A program made the translations under genes and the position numbers. From the UHGV virus genome UHGV-0369576: a stretch of 26,400 nt of DNA. One strand, written 5' to 3'. This document shows positions 230 through 21,266 of the stretch, one piece after another (position 1 is the first letter of the stretch; each line of letters opens with the position of its first letter). Below the pieces are notes generated by a model. The model did not search any database. It was not told the origin of the DNA and saw only the letters and a program-made list of their open reading frames with translations. Source of the DNA: a virus.

Positions 230-232
230 CAC

Positions 233-490
233 GGTATGGTCACCGGGATGGCGGAAGATCTGCAGAGTCTGGTCGGCGGAACGGTGGTCCGGCGTAAGGT
301 TTACGCCCGTTTTCTGGATGCGGTGAACTTCGTCAACGGAAACAGTGACGCCGATCCGGAGCAGGAGGTGATCAGCCGCTGGCGCATCGAACAGTGCAGC
401 GAACTGAGCGCGGTCAGTGCCTCTTTTGTGCTGTCCACACCGACGGAAACGGACGGTGCTGTTTTTCCGGGGCGCATCATGCTGGCCAAC
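233..490 (+). other. Central L coding segment in inverted orientation
   Basis: Plus-strand frame of track ORF 38..523 encodes L-like sequence only from about 233 onward; upstream part of that ORF is antisense read-through. Confidence 0.65.
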
Positions 491-517
491 ACCTGCACCT
501 GGATCTACCGCGGCGAT
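491..517. repeat. Right arm of the 27-bp imperfect inverted repeat
   Basis: acctgcacctggatctaccgcggcgat; encodes TCTWIYRGD on the plus strand, the same peptide encoded by 229..203 on the minus strand. Confidence 0.75.
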
Positions 518-695
518 GGATAAGCCTGATACTGCCGCCCCTGCCAGGTGACTGGTTCACCTTTTTCGTTCTGCTCATTACAGAAGAAATAACGATCTCC
601 GCCGACCTCTGTCAGATCAATTTCCCAGAGCACGACCAGCGCGGATTGCTCCGTTTTAGTGCACTCATTGAGTGTTTCCTGCTGTATATCCTGCA

Positions 696-13116: not shown

Positions 13117-13467
13117 TCAATTGATGCGTTCGCGCGCTGTTTTTGCTTTATGACAGGGCCAGCACAGACTCTGCAGGTTACTGTCTGCATCCGTGCCACC
13201 ATGAGCTTTCGGAATGATGTGGTCCACAGTTCTGGCTTCAACGGCTCTCCCATTGCGCAGGCAGTTCTGACACAGATGATTATCACGCTTCAGTATGCGC
13301 GCACGTATGGCATCCCATTTCGAGCCATAGCCACGCTGGTGGCGGCTCAGTCCGCGTTGATGCTGTACCCATCCTTCGCCACGATGTTTATCGCAGTAAC
13401 CAGAACTGTCTGTGGTTGTACCTGCACATCCACGCTTACGGCAGGCGCGTGGGATTCGTGATGGCAT
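13117..13467 (-). CDS. HNH endonuclease (packaging-associated)
   Basis: Cys pairs and HNH motif (CQNCLRNGR...VDHIIPKAHGG...CWPCHKAK); immediately upstream of TerS as in HK97-like cos phages. Confidence 0.85.
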   Translation of the reverse strand: MPSRIPRACRKRGCAGTTTDSSGYCDKHRGEGWVQHQRGLSRHQRGYGSKWDAIRARILKRDNHLCQNCLRNGRAVEARTVDHIIPKAHGGTDADSNLQSLCWPCHKAKTARERIN

Positions 13468-13474
13468 AAATACC

Positions 13475-13675
13475 TCACCCCCTGTTCAGTTGAATGACGG
13501 GCTGATTCTCGATATGTTCTGCTGTCAGTCTGAAAGTCACAGTGACTGTTGGTGGCTCGCCTCCGCGTGACTCTGTCCTGGCGGAAAGCTGCCCTTCCAG
13601 TAACTCACCATCAACTGCAATCCCATACCCTGCGAAATGTTTACCACGATACAGTTTAGCGACCTGAAACTTCAT
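13475..13675 (-). CDS. Hypothetical protein (66 aa)
   Basis: ATG with AAGGAAGAG SD; coupled upstream of the HNH gene. Confidence 0.45.
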   Translation of the reverse strand: MKFQVAKLYRGKHFAGYGIAVDGELLEGQLSARTESRGGEPPTVTVTFRLTAEHIENQPVIQLNRG

Positions 13676-13919
13676 AACTCTTCCTTTTAGACATGTTAGA
13701 CGTGAACCTGTCGCACGGCAGAGTCGCCGAAAGTTTACGGTTTACCCAGGCTCACAGCTGAAAGCCTTTCTTAGATGTGCACATGCGATATGCTTTGAAT
13801 GAATTATTAAAAACTTTACTCTTTTTCAAAATTTCGTATCCTGGCTCGTTAATGTTAAAGAATTAAACGTAAGAAAGTAGTATGTTGAATCGCTTATATC
13901 AAAATACATAGGACTCAAA

Positions 13920-14405
13920 ATGCCAGAACTCGTTGATCCAACAGACTCATTAATTAGTTTTCAATACGCCTTTTCTAATGGTCTGATTAAGCCTTCACCA
14001 TGCATAGTTCACCCAAATATGAAGGTGCTTTTGGATGATGCAGAGGGTACGCCACGGTTTACTTATGCATTCTTTGAAGGAGAAAATGTTAAAGGTGTTG
14101 CTATATATGTCCCTGCAGAGTTTGTTGAAGGTAAACCATGCTTTGGCGTTGGCTATGCAGTAGCCGATGAATATAAAGCGCAAGGCATCGGTACTCAACT
14201 TCTCATCGCCAGCATTGAAGAAATGCAATACGGATTTAGAAATTCCTTCAATGAATTCTATGTAGAGGCTATTGTCGGGGTTGGTAATCAAGCCTCCAAC
14301 AAATTAGCTGCAAAAGTTTTATCTGATACTCCTGAGCCAGGGACAGATTCTTACTCAGGAAAACCTATCAATCAGTACATGAAACTTTTCAAAACCACAA
14401 AATAA
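13920..14405 (+). CDS. GNAT-fold N-acetyltransferase-like moron
   Basis: Motif-A-like VGYAVADEYKAQGIGTQLL (Q-x-x-G-x-G) and motif-B-like FYVEAIVGVGNQASNKLAAKV; opposite strand to all neighbours; AT-rich; own AGGA SD and downstream hairpin. Confidence 0.55.
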   Translation: MPELVDPTDSLISFQYAFSNGLIKPSPCIVHPNMKVLLDDAEGTPRFTYAFFEGENVKGVAIYVPAEFVEGKPCFGVGYAVADEYKAQGIGTQLLIASIEEMQYGFRNSFNEFYVEAIVGVGNQASNKLAAKVLSDTPEPGTDSYSGKPINQYMKLFKTTK

Positions 14406-14415
14406 CTACCATTCT

Positions 14416-14437
14416 GGCGCAGATTTTTGCGCCTTTT
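14416..14437 (+). terminator. Hairpin plus short T-run after the GNAT-like gene
   Basis: ggcgc-agattttt-gcgcc followed by tttt on the plus strand. Confidence 0.35.
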
Positions 14438-14583
14438 CAGGTTTGCAGTTCACCTGCCACGCTTTGTTATGCACCTGAATGTCCCGCTTCGTCTGTTGCA
14501 TTATCATAAGTAATAGCGTAGGTTGACACCTTGGCTCTCTTTCGCCACCGGCGAATCTTTAGCGGATTATCCTTGGCCGTTTT

Positions 14584-15051
14584 TTATCTGAGACATTGCT
14601 CACGAATGTATAGCTGTGCCCCTTCCAGTTGCTTCTGCATCGTCATCAACCGTTCTCTGAGGGTGAAATAATCCCGTTCAGCGGTGTCTGCCAGTCGGGG
14701 GCTGGTTGCATTATCCACGCTGGTGGGTCCGGTGGCTTCACGCACGGCTGCGGAGCAACTGGCATTGACCCGCAGGCGCTTACGACCAGCGGCAACATCA
14801 GCGCGCAGAGTTTCATTTTCAGCTTTCGCATTGGCTAATTCTCTCGAGTACTTTGCATCGAGCGCAGCAACATCACGCTGACGCTGTTGCATGTCAGCGA
14901 TGGTGGCAGTCGCCTGCTTCAGCTCACTGACTTTTTTATCACGCTGTTCTTTGTAGGCGATGGCGTTATCACGGTAATGATTGACCGCCCACGACAGGCA
15001 GACGATGGTGCAGATAACCAGAGTATAAATAATCGCTGCGACTCTGCTCAC
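14584..15051 (-). CDS. Rz: Rz i-spanin
   Basis: N-terminal TM helix then coiled-coil; GTG start overlaps endolysin stop (GTGA); contains embedded Rz1. Confidence 0.8.
14646..14831 (-). CDS. Rz1: Rz1 o-spanin lipoprotein embedded in Rz in the +1 frame
   Basis: Signal peptide with lipobox VSAC, proline-rich mature part, entirely within Rz. Confidence 0.8.
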
Positions 15052-15581
15052 TGATCTATCCCCCAACAGGCTAATGCGCTTTCCTGGTCACGACGAATAA
15101 CCTGTCCATAGCAGTTATTTGAACGTATGCGGCAATCGCGCCCACCATCTTTTATCCACCAGCGAATCGCCTCGCATGCGCCCTTACGATCACCGGCATT
15201 CAGCCGCTTATAAAACGTCGACGGGAAACACTTACCGGGGCCAATGTTATAGGGACAGAATGACGCTATACCCGCTTTCTGTGGTTCGGTCAGTGGTACT
15301 TTAATATTGCGCTCCACCCATGCCAGCGCCTTATCACGTTCAATAGCGTTAACCTGGTCGCATTTTTCCTTCGACAGCTTCATTCCCGGTATGACGGGCT
15401 TACCATCCACCATTGTGGCACCACGACAGATGGTCCATATACCGGAACCATCGCGGTATGCCGTAGTGTGGTTACCCTCTTTTTCATCCAGAAACTGGTC
15501 AAGTATTTGAGGAGCAGACGCGCCTGCAGCAATCAGCGCCAGAACAGCAGCTGACAGGCCGTATTTGATTTTTGCGCTCAT
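15048..15581 (-). CDS. R: SAR endolysin (lysozyme-like)
   Basis: N-terminal Gly/Ala-rich weakly hydrophobic SAR segment ([16 protein letters not shown]) followed by an E...D...T catalytic region. Confidence 0.85.
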
Positions 15582-16463: not shown

Positions 16464-16538
<75 letters not shown>

Positions 16539-16541
16539 ATA

Positions 16542-16617
<76 letters not shown>

Positions 16618-16619
16618 AC

Positions 16620-16696
16620 TGGACCGCCACCGGGGACTCGAACCTCGCACACTCAACTTAAAGGGTTGACGCTCTTTCCTGATGAGCTAGTGGCGG
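16620..16696 (-). tRNA. tRNA-like gene with non-canonical features (anticodon region CCUUUAA, possibly UUU/Lys)
   Basis: Perfect 7-bp acceptor stem starting C1-G72, D and T arms present, encoded CCA, but C at position 33 and an A-C mismatch in the T stem. Confidence 0.45.
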
Positions 16697-16697
16697 C

Positions 16698-16773
16698 TGG
16701 TGGCCCTTGCTGGATTTGAACCAGCGACCTGGCGATTATGAGTCGCTCGCTCTCACCACTGAGCTAAAGGGCC
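16698..16773 (-). tRNA. tRNA with CAU anticodon (Ile2/Met type, ileX/ileZ-like)
   Basis: Anticodon loop CUCAUAA; overall similarity to E. coli ileX from memory; encoded CCA. Confidence 0.7.
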
Positions 16774-19355: not shown

Positions 19356-19426
19356 CGGTTGTCTCTGCTGGCGCAGCAGGTGCCAGTTGTTCAGGCTGGC
19401 GTGCGAATTGTAAACCAGAATGCCAG

Positions 19427-19452
19427 GAAAAAACAAAACCCGCCGAAGCGGG
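19427..19452 (-). terminator. Intrinsic terminator
   Basis: cccgc-cgaa-gcggg stem followed on the minus strand by ttttgtttttt. Confidence 0.55.
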
Positions 19453-19651
19453 TATGCTAAAACAAACTGAAAGTAATATACCGGACTTGTAAAGGAACGA
19501 TAGAATAATTATTGGATTAAACCCTGACTCAATCCAGATTTCATAGACAACAACTACGGACTAATCATCACAGTCATGTTTGATAGACTTAGTCCACATT
19601 GGGTGAGGGTTTACGGCGTTTTCACTAATAATTTATCGTCCAAGCTATACA

Positions 19652-20044
19652 CTACTGCCCTGTTTTAACGAAGTTTTTAAAGGAAACAACTGCCTGATAG
19701 GGGTTTGGTTGACAGCCAAACATATTATCGCAAAAAGGCTTGATGAAAATTCTTGAGGATCCATCTTCATTTGGCATTTTACTCACTTGATAAGCGAGGA
19801 ATGGACTATTTGGAGAGGGATTATAAGTGGAAATTAGCGTGTCTGTCGCCGTTTGAATTTTCCATGAGGAATTATTAGCCAACCAGAATTGCGCTCGTTT
19901 CCAATAAAAGTCACATTGCTTTTCATCATTACATGTTAGTGGCTTCATTGCTTCTGCTTTCAACGCTGGATCGATCTTTGCTGCACACCCTCCCAACATT
20001 ACTGTTGCAATCATTACACCTGCGACTAAAACAAGTTTCTTCAT
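19652..20044 (-). CDS. Lipoprotein (130 aa), AT-rich moron
   Basis: Signal peptide MKKLVLVAGVMIATVMLGGC with lipobox LGGC; six further Cys; low-GC gene bracketed by terminator hairpins. Confidence 0.65.
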   Translation of the reverse strand: MKKLVLVAGVMIATVMLGGCAAKIDPALKAEAMKPLTCNDEKQCDFYWKRAQFWLANNSSWKIQTATDTLISTYNPSPNSPFLAYQVSKMPNEDGSSRIFIKPFCDNMFGCQPNPYQAVVSFKNFVKTGQ

Positions 20045-20187: not shown

Positions 20188-20343
20188 TTACTCCTCAGGT
20201 TCGTAAGCTGTGAAGACAGCGACCTCCGTCTGGCCGGTTCGGATTCGTACCTCGCAGAGGTCTTTCCTCGTTACCAGTGCCGTCACAATGACGGTTAAAC
20301 AGATGACGATCAGGGCGATTAACATCGCCTTTTGCTGCTTCAT
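20188..20343 (-). CDS. hokD: Hok-family type I toxin (HokD/RelF-like)
   Basis: 51 aa, MKQQKAMLIALIVICLTVIVTALVTRKDLCEVRIRTGQTEVAVFTAYEPEE; single TM helix and conserved Hok C-terminal region. Confidence 0.8.
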   Translation of the reverse strand: MKQQKAMLIALIVICLTVIVTALVTRKDLCEVRIRTGQTEVAVFTAYEPEE

Positions 20344-20579
20344 AGCCTGCTTCTCCTTGCCTTTCGGCACGTAAGAGGCTAACCTAGATTTGCCGTTCAT
20401 AGATTGAGCCTCAGATTAATGTTAAGCGTCTTGCAGGACGCGTAATGTTAACTGGGGCTTTTCTCTATCTGCCTTTGGTGTTCATGCCTGAGACAGATAG
20501 CCTCAAGCACCCGCAGCCATTCTACTTAACTCCCGTTACCTCGCCAATATAAAATCAATCAGAAAGGTGATCCATAAAA

Positions 20580-21266
20580 TCACTCCTTCTCTTCTTTTCC
20601 GTAGTGGAGTTGGCCAATTTTGATAAGAGGGCGTCCCTGAGATTTGCGGTGTAGATTGGTATCGCGCAGAGAATACACACAGCCACAATATTCCTGCTGA
20701 TAGAATTTTTCGCGCTTGCTGATTTCAATCATACGGGACGAGCCGCCCTGCTTGCGCCAGTTATAATCCCAGTACACCATACCCGGATAATGCGCAACAG
20801 CTCGCCGCCCACACTCGTTAACCTGCTGCATATTTTTCCAGCGTGAAATGCCCAGTGAACTGCTGATCACACTGAAACCATTTTCAGCAGCGTACAACGC
20901 TGTCCGCTCAAAACGCATGTCAAAACACATGGTACAACGGATCCCCCTCTCAGGCTCCCATTCCATTCCTTTGGCACGTTCAAACCAGTTGTCGGTGTCG
21001 TAATCAGCATCGATAAACGGCACGCCGTGTTGTTCAGCAAAGCGAATATTTTCATCCTTACGAATTAAATACTCTTTCTGAGGATGAATGTTCGGGTTGT
21101 AGAAAAAGATGGTGTAGTCGATTCCCGAGGCCTGAAGCGCCTCCATCACTTCACCGGAACATGGAGCACAGCAAGAGTGCAGTAGTAGTTTGTTTGCCCC
21201 GTTTGGGAGCTCCAATTTAGGCCGTTTGAAATCAGCAATAGTCATAAATATTTTTATTGGGGTCAT
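20580..21266 (-). CDS. Cys-rich DUF208/QueH-like protein (putative epoxyqueuosine-reductase family)
   Basis: N-terminal [14 protein letters not shown] motif plus further Cys clusters (CTMCFD, EYCGCVY); family assignment from memory of the motif only. Confidence 0.45.

What the first reader, a model, noticed from the sequence alone, without database searches (positions are those of the whole stretch)
13676..14440. Opposite-strand AT-rich GNAT-like acetyltransferase moron between lysis and packaging modules
This is the only plus-strand gene in about 11 kb of minus-strand late genes. It sits in a low-GC island with its own SD and a downstream hairpin, in the classic moron slot between Rz and the terminase block. 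Its motifs resemble GNAT acetyl-CoA binding motifs A and B. No adjacent RHH/HTH antitoxin is present, so it is probably not a canonical GNAT toxin-antitoxin pair; it could be a lysogenic-conversion acetyltransferase.
Basis: partly seen in the sequence, partly recalled or inferred. Interest (0 to 1): 0.55.

Follow-up and report, generated by a model that had tools for sequence, protein, structure and literature searches.

The report
Stand-alone GNAT acetyltransferase prophage moron
An E. coli prophage carries, between its lysis and DNA-packaging genes, one small backwards-facing cargo gene for an acetyl-transferring enzyme; the gene is real, conserved and already labelled as such in databases, but what it acetylates is unknown.

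Summary

The slot between HNH and Rz is a true cargo hotspot. Near-identical phages have it empty, or filled with Bor or a YfbU-domain gene. RefSeq already names the protein "GNAT family N-acetyltransferase" (WP_001114684.1; 63 of 5,426 complete E. coli genomes).

The family has 593 clusters at 50% identity, nearly all about 160 aa. It recurs as a lone antiparallel gene at the lysis/packaging junction of at least four packaging-module backbones, on Pseudomonas, Agrobacterium and Aeromonas plasmids, and in diverse chromosomes. No partner gene is conserved, so it is not a canonical GNAT toxin-antitoxin pair. No GNAT subfamily stands out and the acceptor substrate is undetermined. One relative is fused to an Mrr-STAND protein beside SIR2, which hints at a conflict role.

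Verdict: an ordinary, correctly read moron from an uncharacterised GNAT family. No promoter was found. The conserved linker sequences bounding the slot are the least expected detail.

The parts
13920..14405 (+). GNAT-family N-acetyltransferase gene (161 aa; identical to RefSeq WP_001114684.1)
13910..13913 (+). Shine-Dalgarno AGGA, 6 nt before the ATG
   Evidence: Read from the sequence. Conserved as (A/G)AGGA in orthologous loci.
13796..13909 (+). AT-rich leader of the cassette; presumed promoter region, promoter not identified
   Evidence: GC about 0.3-0.38. Short blocks (TTCAAAATT, CATTAATGTTAA, GTATTTT) are shared with Enterobacter-type loci. No sigma-70 consensus on the + strand. No credible small ORF.
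14416..14445 (+). Terminator-like hairpin (14416-14433) plus interrupted T-tract
   Evidence: The 51-nt stretch 14400-14450 folds at -13.3 kcal/mol, z = -2.2. Conserved in the 76-100% identity group and functionally in Yersinia. Below the strict terminator criterion.
13696..13795 (.). Left boundary element: ~100-nt highly conserved non-coding sequence with a long imperfect inverted repeat
   Evidence: 86-91% identical in GNAT-less phi80, mEp213, HK639, mEp390 and others. Present about 115-125 nt upstream of the GNAT in nearly all enterobacterial GNAT loci, whatever the - strand neighbour. 91% mean identity. The consensus copy folds at -40 to -45 kcal/mol, but there is no covariation and the window copy is degraded. 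No Rfam hit.
14445..14495 (.). Right boundary linker: conserved non-coding sequence between the cassette and Rz
   Evidence: 80-90% identical in all enterobacterial GNAT loci, including those with only 57% GNAT identity, and in GNAT-less phage 611R1, whose homology to the window resumes at 14444.
13475..13675 (-). ORF66: small late-strand gene (phrog_10235, unknown function) that shares the variable island but is not a partner of the GNAT
   Evidence: PHROG hit at 2.6e-28. No Pfam domain and no RHH/HTH. Absent from the empty-site phage apart from a 28-nt remnant. Accompanies the GNAT only in the E. coli group and one other locus.

Best explanation
This is a moron: a self-contained cargo cassette of about 0.65 kb (AT-rich leader, SD, 161-aa ORF, hairpin/T-tract). 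It is inserted antiparallel to the late operon in the polymorphic slot between the lysis genes and the HNH/terminase genes of an HK97-type lambdoid E. coli prophage.

Its product is a catalytically competent, stand-alone GNAT-fold acetyl-CoA-dependent N-acetyltransferase. It belongs to an uncharacterised family enriched on mobile elements and acts without a partner protein.

Shown: gene reality and constraint, the fold, an intact CoA-binding motif, cargo polymorphism, and the absence of any conserved neighbour.

Inferred from orientation and from the Bor precedent in the same slot: it is transcribed on its own in the lysogen rather than with the late genes, and it benefits the carrier cell.

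Inferred weakly (about 0.35): the acceptor is a protein or other foreign or conflict-related molecule, for example an incoming phage or host protein, giving exclusion or defence, rather than a tRNA. Detoxification of a small molecule is nearly as likely (about 0.25). The stated confidence applies to the shown and orientation-inferred parts, not to the choice of target.
For: GNAT identity:
- Pfam PF00583, 27.4 bits against a cut-off of 20.7.
- AF2 model with pLDDT 91.9 and pTM 0.87.
- Motif A K86-A-Q-G89-I-G91 (R at position 86 in 87% of the family). N123 and R46 are invariant, and E116, S126, D39, G78-Y79-A80 are at least 89-98% conserved over 163 sequences.

Functional gene: dN/dS 0.05-0.17.

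Moron anatomy:
- Only + strand gene in about 25 kb.
- GC 0.40 against 0.50.
- Conserved SD and hairpin.
- In 95-98% identical backbones the slot is empty or holds Bor or a YfbU-domain gene.

Recurrence: antiparallel to both neighbours in 33 of 42 loci, across at least four packaging-module types and 46-100% protein identity.

Stand-alone: 73 Pfam families among 111 neighbours, none recurring more than three times.

Mobile-element and conflict association:
- 34 plasmids, 17 of them conjugative.
- Neighbours include Pycsar, TIR, Abi and TA genes.
- One relative is fused as Mrr-nSTAND1-...-GNAT immediately downstream of a SIR2_2 gene.

Acidic protein: pI 4.77, net charge -6.
Against: - No sigma-70 consensus promoter was found upstream, so autonomous transcription is not shown.
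- The hairpin fails a strict terminator criterion and is absent in the 54-57% identity group.
- No expression data were available.
- No PADLOC defence model matches.
- No sequenced phage isolate among 50,697 records carries the gene, so it is known only from prophages and uncultivated viral contigs.
- The conflict link rests on heterogeneous neighbourhoods and a single metagenomic fusion. Some chromosomal homologs sit beside housekeeping genes.
Confidence: 0.7

Rival explanations
1. Small-molecule resistance or detoxification enzyme. The GNAT acetylates an amine on an antibiotic, a toxic amino-acid analogue or an aminoacyl-nucleotide (in the manner of AAC(6'), PAT/Bar, streptothricin acetyltransferase or MccE/RimL) and protects the carrier cell.
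For: - This is the most common role of stand-alone GNATs on mobile elements (general knowledge).
- Invariant R46 plus conserved D39 and D143 could hold a zwitterionic substrate.
- The family is widespread in soil and plant-associated taxa and their plasmids.
Against: - No NCBIfam model matches above noise; the best is E = 0.09 to an unrelated Pat model.
- No resistance genes lie nearby in any plasmid locus examined.
- The structural ranking is flat, so these hits are no better than protein acetyltransferases.
- The abbreviated N-terminal region lacks the usual alpha1-alpha2 wall of small-molecule pockets (the link to substrate class is my inference).
Confidence: 0.25
2. Orphan GNAT toxin or abortive-infection effector. 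It acetylates aminoacyl-tRNA like TacT/AtaT/ItaT and is held in check by an unrecognised antitoxin (a small protein or RNA) or by low expression.
For: - Similar size (about 160 aa).
- It is on mobile elements and often close to unrelated TA pairs.
- A long ~240-nt upstream non-coding region could hide a regulator.
Against: - No adjacent co-oriented RHH/DUF1778/HTH gene. ORF66 is divergent, has no DNA-binding domain and is not conserved with the GNAT.
- Only 22-30-aa ORFs in the leader, none conserved.
- No recurrent neighbour in 111 flanking genes.
- The protein is acidic (pI 4.77) and the family median pI is 6.3, whereas tRNA-binding GNAT toxins are basic (general knowledge).
- ItaT ranks 49th in a flat list.
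Confidence: 0.08
3. Anti-defence protein. It acetylates and inactivates a host immune protein, as AcrVA5 does to Cas12a, and helps the phage or plasmid establish itself.
For: - In Pseudomonas plasmids the gene lies in long same-strand runs of small hypothetical ORFs downstream of a small tyrosine recombinase, reminiscent of anti-defence islands.
- GNAT anti-CRISPRs are a precedent (general knowledge).
Against: - In phages the gene faces against the late operon, far from the early region where anti-defence genes are expressed. That fits expression from the prophage, not at entry.
- The leading-region anti-defence paper contains no occurrence of 'acetyltransferase'.
- Position relative to oriT was not established for any plasmid.
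Confidence: 0.1
4. Selectively neutral hitch-hiker. The gene is carried along because the slot tolerates insertions and has no current function in E. coli.
For: - Present in only 1.2% of complete E. coli genomes, all at least 99% identical, which suggests one recent spread.
- No promoter found.
- The prophage in the window may be defective, because gene L is interrupted by an inversion.
Against: - dN/dS is 0.05-0.17 over orthologs that have diverged to dS of about 1.
- The ORF is intact in all 63 genomes.
- It recurs in the same slot in several phage backbones.
Confidence: 0.05

Closest known systems
RimJ/RimL/RimI and archaeal/eukaryotic Naa-type N-alpha-acetyltransferases (Pfam Acetyltransf_1 / Acetyltransf_3)
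Lambda Bor and other lambdoid morons in the Rz-to-packaging slot
   Same: Same slot, same antiparallel orientation, own transcription-unit architecture and lower GC. Phage 733R4, with 91-98% identical flanks, carries Bor where the window carries ORF66 + GNAT.
   Different: Bor is an outer-membrane lipoprotein, whereas this is a cytoplasmic enzyme. Lysogen expression is documented for Bor (general knowledge) but not for this gene.
Type II GNAT toxins (TacT, AtaT, ItaT, KacT) with RHH/DUF1778 antitoxins
   Different: No antitoxin gene and no conserved partner. Acidic rather than basic. Not closer to these toxins than to about 50 other GNAT families.
AcrVA5 (GNAT anti-CRISPR that acetylates Cas12a)
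   Same: A small GNAT encoded by a mobile element that acts alone on a protein target (general knowledge).
   Different: No detectable specific similarity: it is not among the listed PDB matches. The orientation in the prophage argues for lysogen expression rather than early expression.
Avs/STAND NTPase anti-phage proteins with SIR2 or Mrr effectors
   Same: One family member forms the C-terminal domain of a 1,098-aa Mrr-nSTAND1 protein encoded next to a SIR2_2 gene.
   Different: The window protein is a stand-alone 161-aa enzyme with no NTPase or nuclease nearby. The fusion is a single metagenomic case.

Membership tests
GNAT superfamily (Pfam PF00583 Acetyltransf_1) | Sequence match to the family model above its curated gathering score | tested here: met
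   27.4 bits against a cut-off of 20.7, E = 4.4e-6, residues 37-132. Weaker sub-threshold hits to Acetyltransf_3 and Acetyltransf_7.
GNAT superfamily (Pfam PF00583 Acetyltransf_1) | GNAT fold: mixed beta-sheet with beta4/beta5 splay, flanked by alpha3 and alpha4 | tested here: met
GNAT superfamily (Pfam PF00583 Acetyltransf_1) | Motif A pyrophosphate-binding loop [R/Q]-x-x-G-x-[G/A] after beta4 | tested here: met
   K86-A-Q-G89-I-G91 in the window protein. Position 86 is R in 87% and G89 is conserved in 99% of 163 family members.
GNAT superfamily (Pfam PF00583 Acetyltransf_1) | Acetyl-CoA-dependent acyl transfer activity | not testable with these tools
   Needs a biochemical assay.
Moron (autonomous cargo unit in a phage operon, as defined by Juhala/Hendrix) | Present or absent between otherwise homologous neighbouring genes in related phages | tested here: met
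   Flanks are 91-99% identical in 606R7 (empty, 42-bp gap), 733R4 (Bor) and 611R1 (YfbU-domain gene).
Moron (autonomous cargo unit in a phage operon, as defined by Juhala/Hendrix) | Nucleotide composition unlike the surrounding phage genes | tested here: met
   GC 0.40 against 0.50 in the window; 0.41-0.44 against 0.48-0.55 in orthologous phage loci.
Moron (autonomous cargo unit in a phage operon, as defined by Juhala/Hendrix) | Own promoter and own terminator | tested here: inconclusive
   The terminator-like hairpin plus T-tract is present and conserved but falls below the strict scan criterion. No sigma-70 consensus promoter on the + strand.
Moron (autonomous cargo unit in a phage operon, as defined by Juhala/Hendrix) | Expressed from the repressed prophage | not testable with these tools
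   Needs RNA-seq or a reporter fusion in a lysogen.
Type II GNAT-RHH toxin-antitoxin systems (TacAT, AtaRT, KacAT, ItaRT) | Adjacent co-transcribed RHH/DUF1778 antitoxin gene | tested here: not met
   Both neighbours are on the opposite strand. ORF66 has no DNA-binding domain. Only unconserved 22-30-aa ORFs lie in the leader.
Type II GNAT-RHH toxin-antitoxin systems (TacAT, AtaRT, KacAT, ItaRT) | Partner gene conserved across homologous loci | tested here: not met
   73 Pfam families among 111 neighbours, at most three recurrences (integrase). Phage loci have varied neighbours.
Type II GNAT-RHH toxin-antitoxin systems (TacAT, AtaRT, KacAT, ItaRT) | Growth arrest through acetylation of aminoacyl-tRNA | not testable with these tools
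   Indirect evidence only: pI 4.77 and net charge -6 argue against a tRNA-binding surface.
Known anti-phage defence systems (PADLOC-DB v2) | Match to a model of a known or candidate defence protein | tested here: not met
   0 families at E <= 1 for the GNAT and for ORF66.
Curated acetyltransferase families in NCBIfam (named equivalogs and subfamilies used by PGAP) | Match to a specific curated model above its cut-off | tested here: not met
   The only hit is NF058543 (Pat) at E = 0.09, 11.6 bits against a cut-off of 460. PGAP therefore uses the generic name.

The most novel reading that the evidence does not exclude
The 161-aa protein represents a widespread, uncharacterised family of stand-alone mobile-element GNATs (593 clusters at 50% identity) that act as single-gene conflict effectors, for example by excluding or aborting superinfecting phages through acetylation of a phage or host protein. 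One lineage has been recruited as the C-terminal domain of a SIR2-associated Mrr-STAND immune protein. Separately, the conserved linkers on both sides of the slot (13696-13795 and 14445-14495) would act as portable recombination or expression 'landing pads' that let lambdoid phages swap such cargo.
Probability: 0.25. Interest if true: 0.6.

Novelty: new member of a known kind. Interest (0 to 1): 0.3.

Why it matters
As it stands this is a routine result: a correctly recognised accessory acetyltransferase gene in a prophage, already carrying a generic database name.

It would matter more if the family proves to be a single-gene exclusion, defence or tolerance factor. It is compact, strongly constrained, spread over prophages and plasmids of many Proteobacteria and into Acidobacteriota, and has no characterised member. 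One assay series could therefore annotate hundreds of protein clusters.

The conserved linkers flanking a hotspot that alternately holds Bor, a YfbU-domain gene or this GNAT give a concrete, testable case of how lambdoid phages exchange morons.

Tried and rejected

2. Defence-system membership. PADLOC gave nothing.

3. Literature. No paper mentions WP_001114684. Searches for prophage GNAT morons, defence, leading-region anti-defence, STAND/SIR2+GNAT and superinfection exclusion found nothing on this family.

4. ORF66 as antitoxin. Rejected: opposite strand, no DNA-binding domain, not co-conserved.

5. A hidden small ORF in the leader. Only 22-30-aa ORFs, not conserved.

6. A promoter. The consensus scan was negative. 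My manual inspection of conserved leader blocks gave at best 7-8 of 12 matches, which I do not claim.

7. The left boundary element as a structured RNA or known RNA family. No Rfam hit. The consensus copy has a stable hairpin, but there is no covariation and the window copy is degraded. Unresolved, not claimed.

8. A broad-family genome scan with alignment A6 failed for lack of a conserved stretch. The narrower A1 was used instead.

9. The + strand 161-aa ORF at 38-523 looked like a second same-sized gene. It is an artefact of a 288-bp inversion inside tail gene L.

Full report
WHAT IS THERE

The window is part of a lambdoid E. coli prophage with an HK97-type head and packaging module. It is 99.4% identical over 24.9 kb to a prophage of strain G12. 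The finding's span (13676-14440) contains one real gene, 13920-14405 on the + strand, 161 aa. The span also holds 244 nt of upstream non-coding DNA and a downstream hairpin. RefSeq annotates the identical protein as WP_001114684.1, "GNAT family N-acetyltransferase".

CHECK OF THE OBSERVATION

All descriptive claims hold except the promoter.

- Strand.
- Composition. GC falls to 0.37-0.41 over 13600-14400, against 0.50-0.55 on either side.
- SD. AGGA (13910-13913) lies 6 nt before the ATG and is conserved in orthologs.
- Hairpin. GGCGCAG-ATTT-TTGCGCC (14416-14433) is followed by TTTTCAGGTTTG. The 51-nt stretch 14400-14450 that contains it folds at -13.3 kcal/mol, z = -2.2. It is almost identical in Enterobacter, with a better T-tract, and Yersinia has a different sequence of the same shape. 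It misses the scan's strict T-tract rule and is absent in the 54-57% identity group.
- Promoter. No sigma-70 consensus was found on the + strand, so "its own promoter" is unproven.
- Neighbours. They are Rz (14584-15066), then on the other side ORF66 (13475-13675), HNH (13117-13467), P27-type terS and terL, all on the - strand.

IS IT A GNAT?

Yes.

- Pfam Acetyltransf_1 scores 27.4 bits against a gathering score of 20.7.
- An AlphaFold2 model built on 37 homologs is confident (pLDDT 91.9, pTM 0.87).
- Motif A is intact (K86-A-Q-G89-I-G91). Over 163 family members R46 and N123 are invariant, and G89, D39, S126, A80, E116, G78, S146, C74 and Y79 are 89-99% conserved.
- The N-terminus is unusual. 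One helix (7-19) leads directly into four consecutive strands, in place of beta1-alpha1-alpha2, and only 110-125 residues superpose on known GNATs.
- Sequence searches of the PDB match little more than motif A. BFVD gives only generic viral GNATs.

The fold therefore does not reveal the substrate.

IS IT A FUNCTIONAL GENE?

Pairwise dN/dS between orthologs is 0.05-0.17 at dS of 0.25 to above 1. The cassette is intact and at least 99% identical in 63 of 5,426 complete E. coli genomes, always as a single chromosomal copy. No sequenced phage isolate among 50,697 records encodes it. Thirty IMG/VR viral contigs do.

IS IT A MORON?

Phages whose flanks are 91-99% identical to the window fill the HNH-Rz interval in different ways.

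- 606R7 has a 42-bp gap that still contains a 28-nt remnant of ORF66.
- 733R4 has a DUF4347 fragment plus Bor, on the same antiparallel strand.
- 611R1 has a + strand YfbU-domain gene plus an 88-aa ORF.
- The window has ORF66 plus the GNAT.

Homology to 611R1 resumes at 14444, directly after the hairpin. Homology to phi80 and mEp213 ends at 13789-13810. The GNAT cassette proper is therefore about 13796-14443.

The CDS is 8-12 GC points below its flanks in all enterobacterial and Yersinia phage loci.

Across 42 loci the gene is antiparallel to both neighbours in 33, by crude ORF calling. It sits at the lysis/packaging junction of at least four packaging-module types: HNH/P27-terS/terL, a 485-aa terL, the Yersinia 538-aa terL (there between terS and terL), and a 552-aa terL. 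These loci span 46-100% protein identity.

THE FAMILY AND ITS COMPANY

A profile search of 1.84 billion cluster representatives finds 593 clusters at E <= 1e-3 and 197 at E <= 1e-30. Almost all are about 160 aa and match full length.

- Outside phages the gene is on 34 plasmids (Pseudomonas 14, also Agrobacterium, Aeromonas, Vibrio, Photobacterium, Alteromonas and others; 17 conjugative).
- It is also in chromosomes or MAGs of Acidobacteriota, alpha-, beta- and gammaproteobacteria and one Saccharimonadales bin.
- In Pseudomonas plasmids it lies in same-strand runs of small hypothetical ORFs downstream of a small tyrosine recombinase, near ParA/ParB, TA pairs or Pycsar.
- In Agrobacterium pAt2 it lies beside a TIR protein and a second GNAT. 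In Aeromonas it lies beside an Abi protein and IS elements.
- A bulk Pfam scan of the three genes on each side in 19 diverse non-phage loci gave 73 families among 111 proteins. None occurred more than three times, and the most frequent was integrase.

There is thus no conserved partner.

One relative (P0097, 1,098 aa) has the architecture Mrr nuclease - nSTAND1 NTPase - ... - GNAT, with the catalytic residues retained. It is encoded immediately after a SIR2_2 gene. That looks like an Avs-like defence operon, but it is a single metagenomic contig.

HOW IT MOST LIKELY WORKS

Shown: an autonomous-looking, constrained, stand-alone GNAT cargo gene in a polymorphic moron slot.

Inferred:
- Because it faces the late operon and occupies the place Bor occupies in a sister phage, it is probably transcribed on its own in the lysogen and benefits the carrier.
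- It probably transfers acetyl from acetyl-CoA to an amine, with E116 on beta5 as the likely general base. Invariant R46, together with D39 and D143, are candidate acceptor-binding residues.

The acceptor is unknown. I lean slightly (about 0.35) towards a protein or other conflict-related target, giving exclusion or defence. The reasons are the phage and plasmid accessory contexts and the STAND fusion. Small-molecule detoxification comes next (about 0.25).

A tRNA-acetylating toxin is unlikely (about 0.08). There is no antitoxin and no conserved neighbour. The protein is acidic (pI 4.77, net charge -6; family median pI 6.3). It is no closer to ItaT than to dozens of other GNATs.

An anti-defence role (about 0.1) fits the plasmid arrays but not the antiparallel late-region position in phages.

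COMPARISON WITH WHAT IS KNOWN

- It is a member of the GNAT superfamily: three defining features were tested and met, and activity is untestable here.
- It fits the moron concept: polymorphism and composition are met, promoter and terminator are inconclusive, and expression is untestable.
- It is not a canonical GNAT-RHH TA system: two defining features were tested and not met.
- It is not in PADLOC and matches no specific NCBIfam model.
- No paper in the searchable library mentions the protein or characterises a relative.

A GNAT domain in predicted defence loci has been discussed for other families (PMC12839542). That is only a general precedent.

SIDE OBSERVATION WITHIN THE SPAN

Window 13696-13795 is a ~100-nt non-coding element. 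It is 86-91% identical in phi80, mEp213, HK639, mEp390, mEp043, mEp237 and FSL SP-016, all of which lack the GNAT. It is also present about 115-125 nt upstream of the GNAT in almost all enterobacterial GNAT loci, whatever gene follows on the - strand.

It contains a long imperfect inverted repeat. The consensus copy folds at -40 to -45 kcal/mol (z = -2.7 to -3.9). However, RNAalifold finds no covariation, divergent copies break pairs, and the window's own copy is degraded (z about 0). There is no Rfam match.

A second conserved linker (14445-14495) bounds the cassette on the Rz side. It is conserved even where the GNAT is only 57% identical, and it is present in GNAT-less 611R1. I read both as module-boundary linkers that could mediate cargo exchange. 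Their function is unresolved.

VERDICT

It is also largely ordinary: a generic, already annotated GNAT accessory gene. The added value here is:
- the exact cassette limits;
- the evidence that the slot is a cargo hotspot bounded by conserved linkers;
- the size and mobile-element distribution of an uncharacterised GNAT family;
- the exclusion of the canonical TA model.

Interest 0.3; new member of a known kind.

Noticed in passing
window 13696-13795: A ~100-nt non-coding element with a long imperfect inverted repeat. It is 86-91% identical in many lambdoid phages that lack the GNAT (phi80, mEp213, HK639, mEp390 and others). It also lies at a fixed distance upstream of the GNAT in nearly all enterobacterial GNAT loci, whatever the minus-strand neighbour. 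No Rfam hit and no covariation; the copy in the window is degraded.
   Followed up: partly
window 14445-14495: A second conserved non-coding linker, between the GNAT hairpin and Rz. It is 80-90% identical across all enterobacterial GNAT loci (even where the GNAT is only 57% identical) and in GNAT-less phage 611R1. The cargo slot is therefore bounded by conserved sequences on both sides.
   Followed up: partly
window 231-518: A 288-bp segment inside the minor tail protein L gene is inverted relative to the 99.4%-identical G12 prophage. It breaks gene L and creates the spurious + strand 161-aa ORF at 38-523, which carries gpL-like sequence. The prophage may be defective, or this may be an assembly or rearrangement artefact.
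   Followed up: partly
L075 295-4740 (metagenomic contig SRR30787003_439299): A SIR2_2 gene is followed by a 1,098-aa protein with Mrr nuclease, nSTAND1 NTPase and a C-terminal domain of this GNAT family, with catalytic residues retained. This is an Avs-like candidate defence operon.
   Followed up: partly
L015 2006-2545 (+) and L016 2394-2687 (+): The same HNH-Rz slot in sister phages holds other antiparallel cargo: a 179-aa YfbU-domain protein (611R1) or Bor (733R4). Phage 606R7 has the slot empty apart from a 28-nt remnant of ORF66.
   Followed up: yes
L001 2581-11080 (E. coli KFu019): In a related prophage, a satellite-like island (tyrosine integrase, DUF927 primase-like protein, Icd-like protein, PerC, SSB, HTH regulators) abuts a truncated terL. 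An extra + strand 171-aa gene lies between terS and HNH. Neither is present in the window.
   Followed up: no
window 16467-16773 (-): Four tandem tRNA genes (Gly, Thr, Lys, Ile in the G12 annotation) lie between antiterminator Q and the holin.
   Followed up: no
window 20338-20512 (-) and about 20190-20345: A hok/sok type I toxin-antitoxin locus (Rfam sok at 110 bits; hokD in PGAP) lies inside the prophage early region. Next to it is a low-GC patch (19400-20000, GC about 0.39) with a 130-aa hypothetical ORF (19652-20044, -).
   Followed up: no
window 20580-21266 (-): The prophage encodes an epoxyqueuosine reductase QueH homolog (annotation of the G12 prophage). This is an unusual accessory gene, given the phage's own tRNA cluster.
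   Followed up: no
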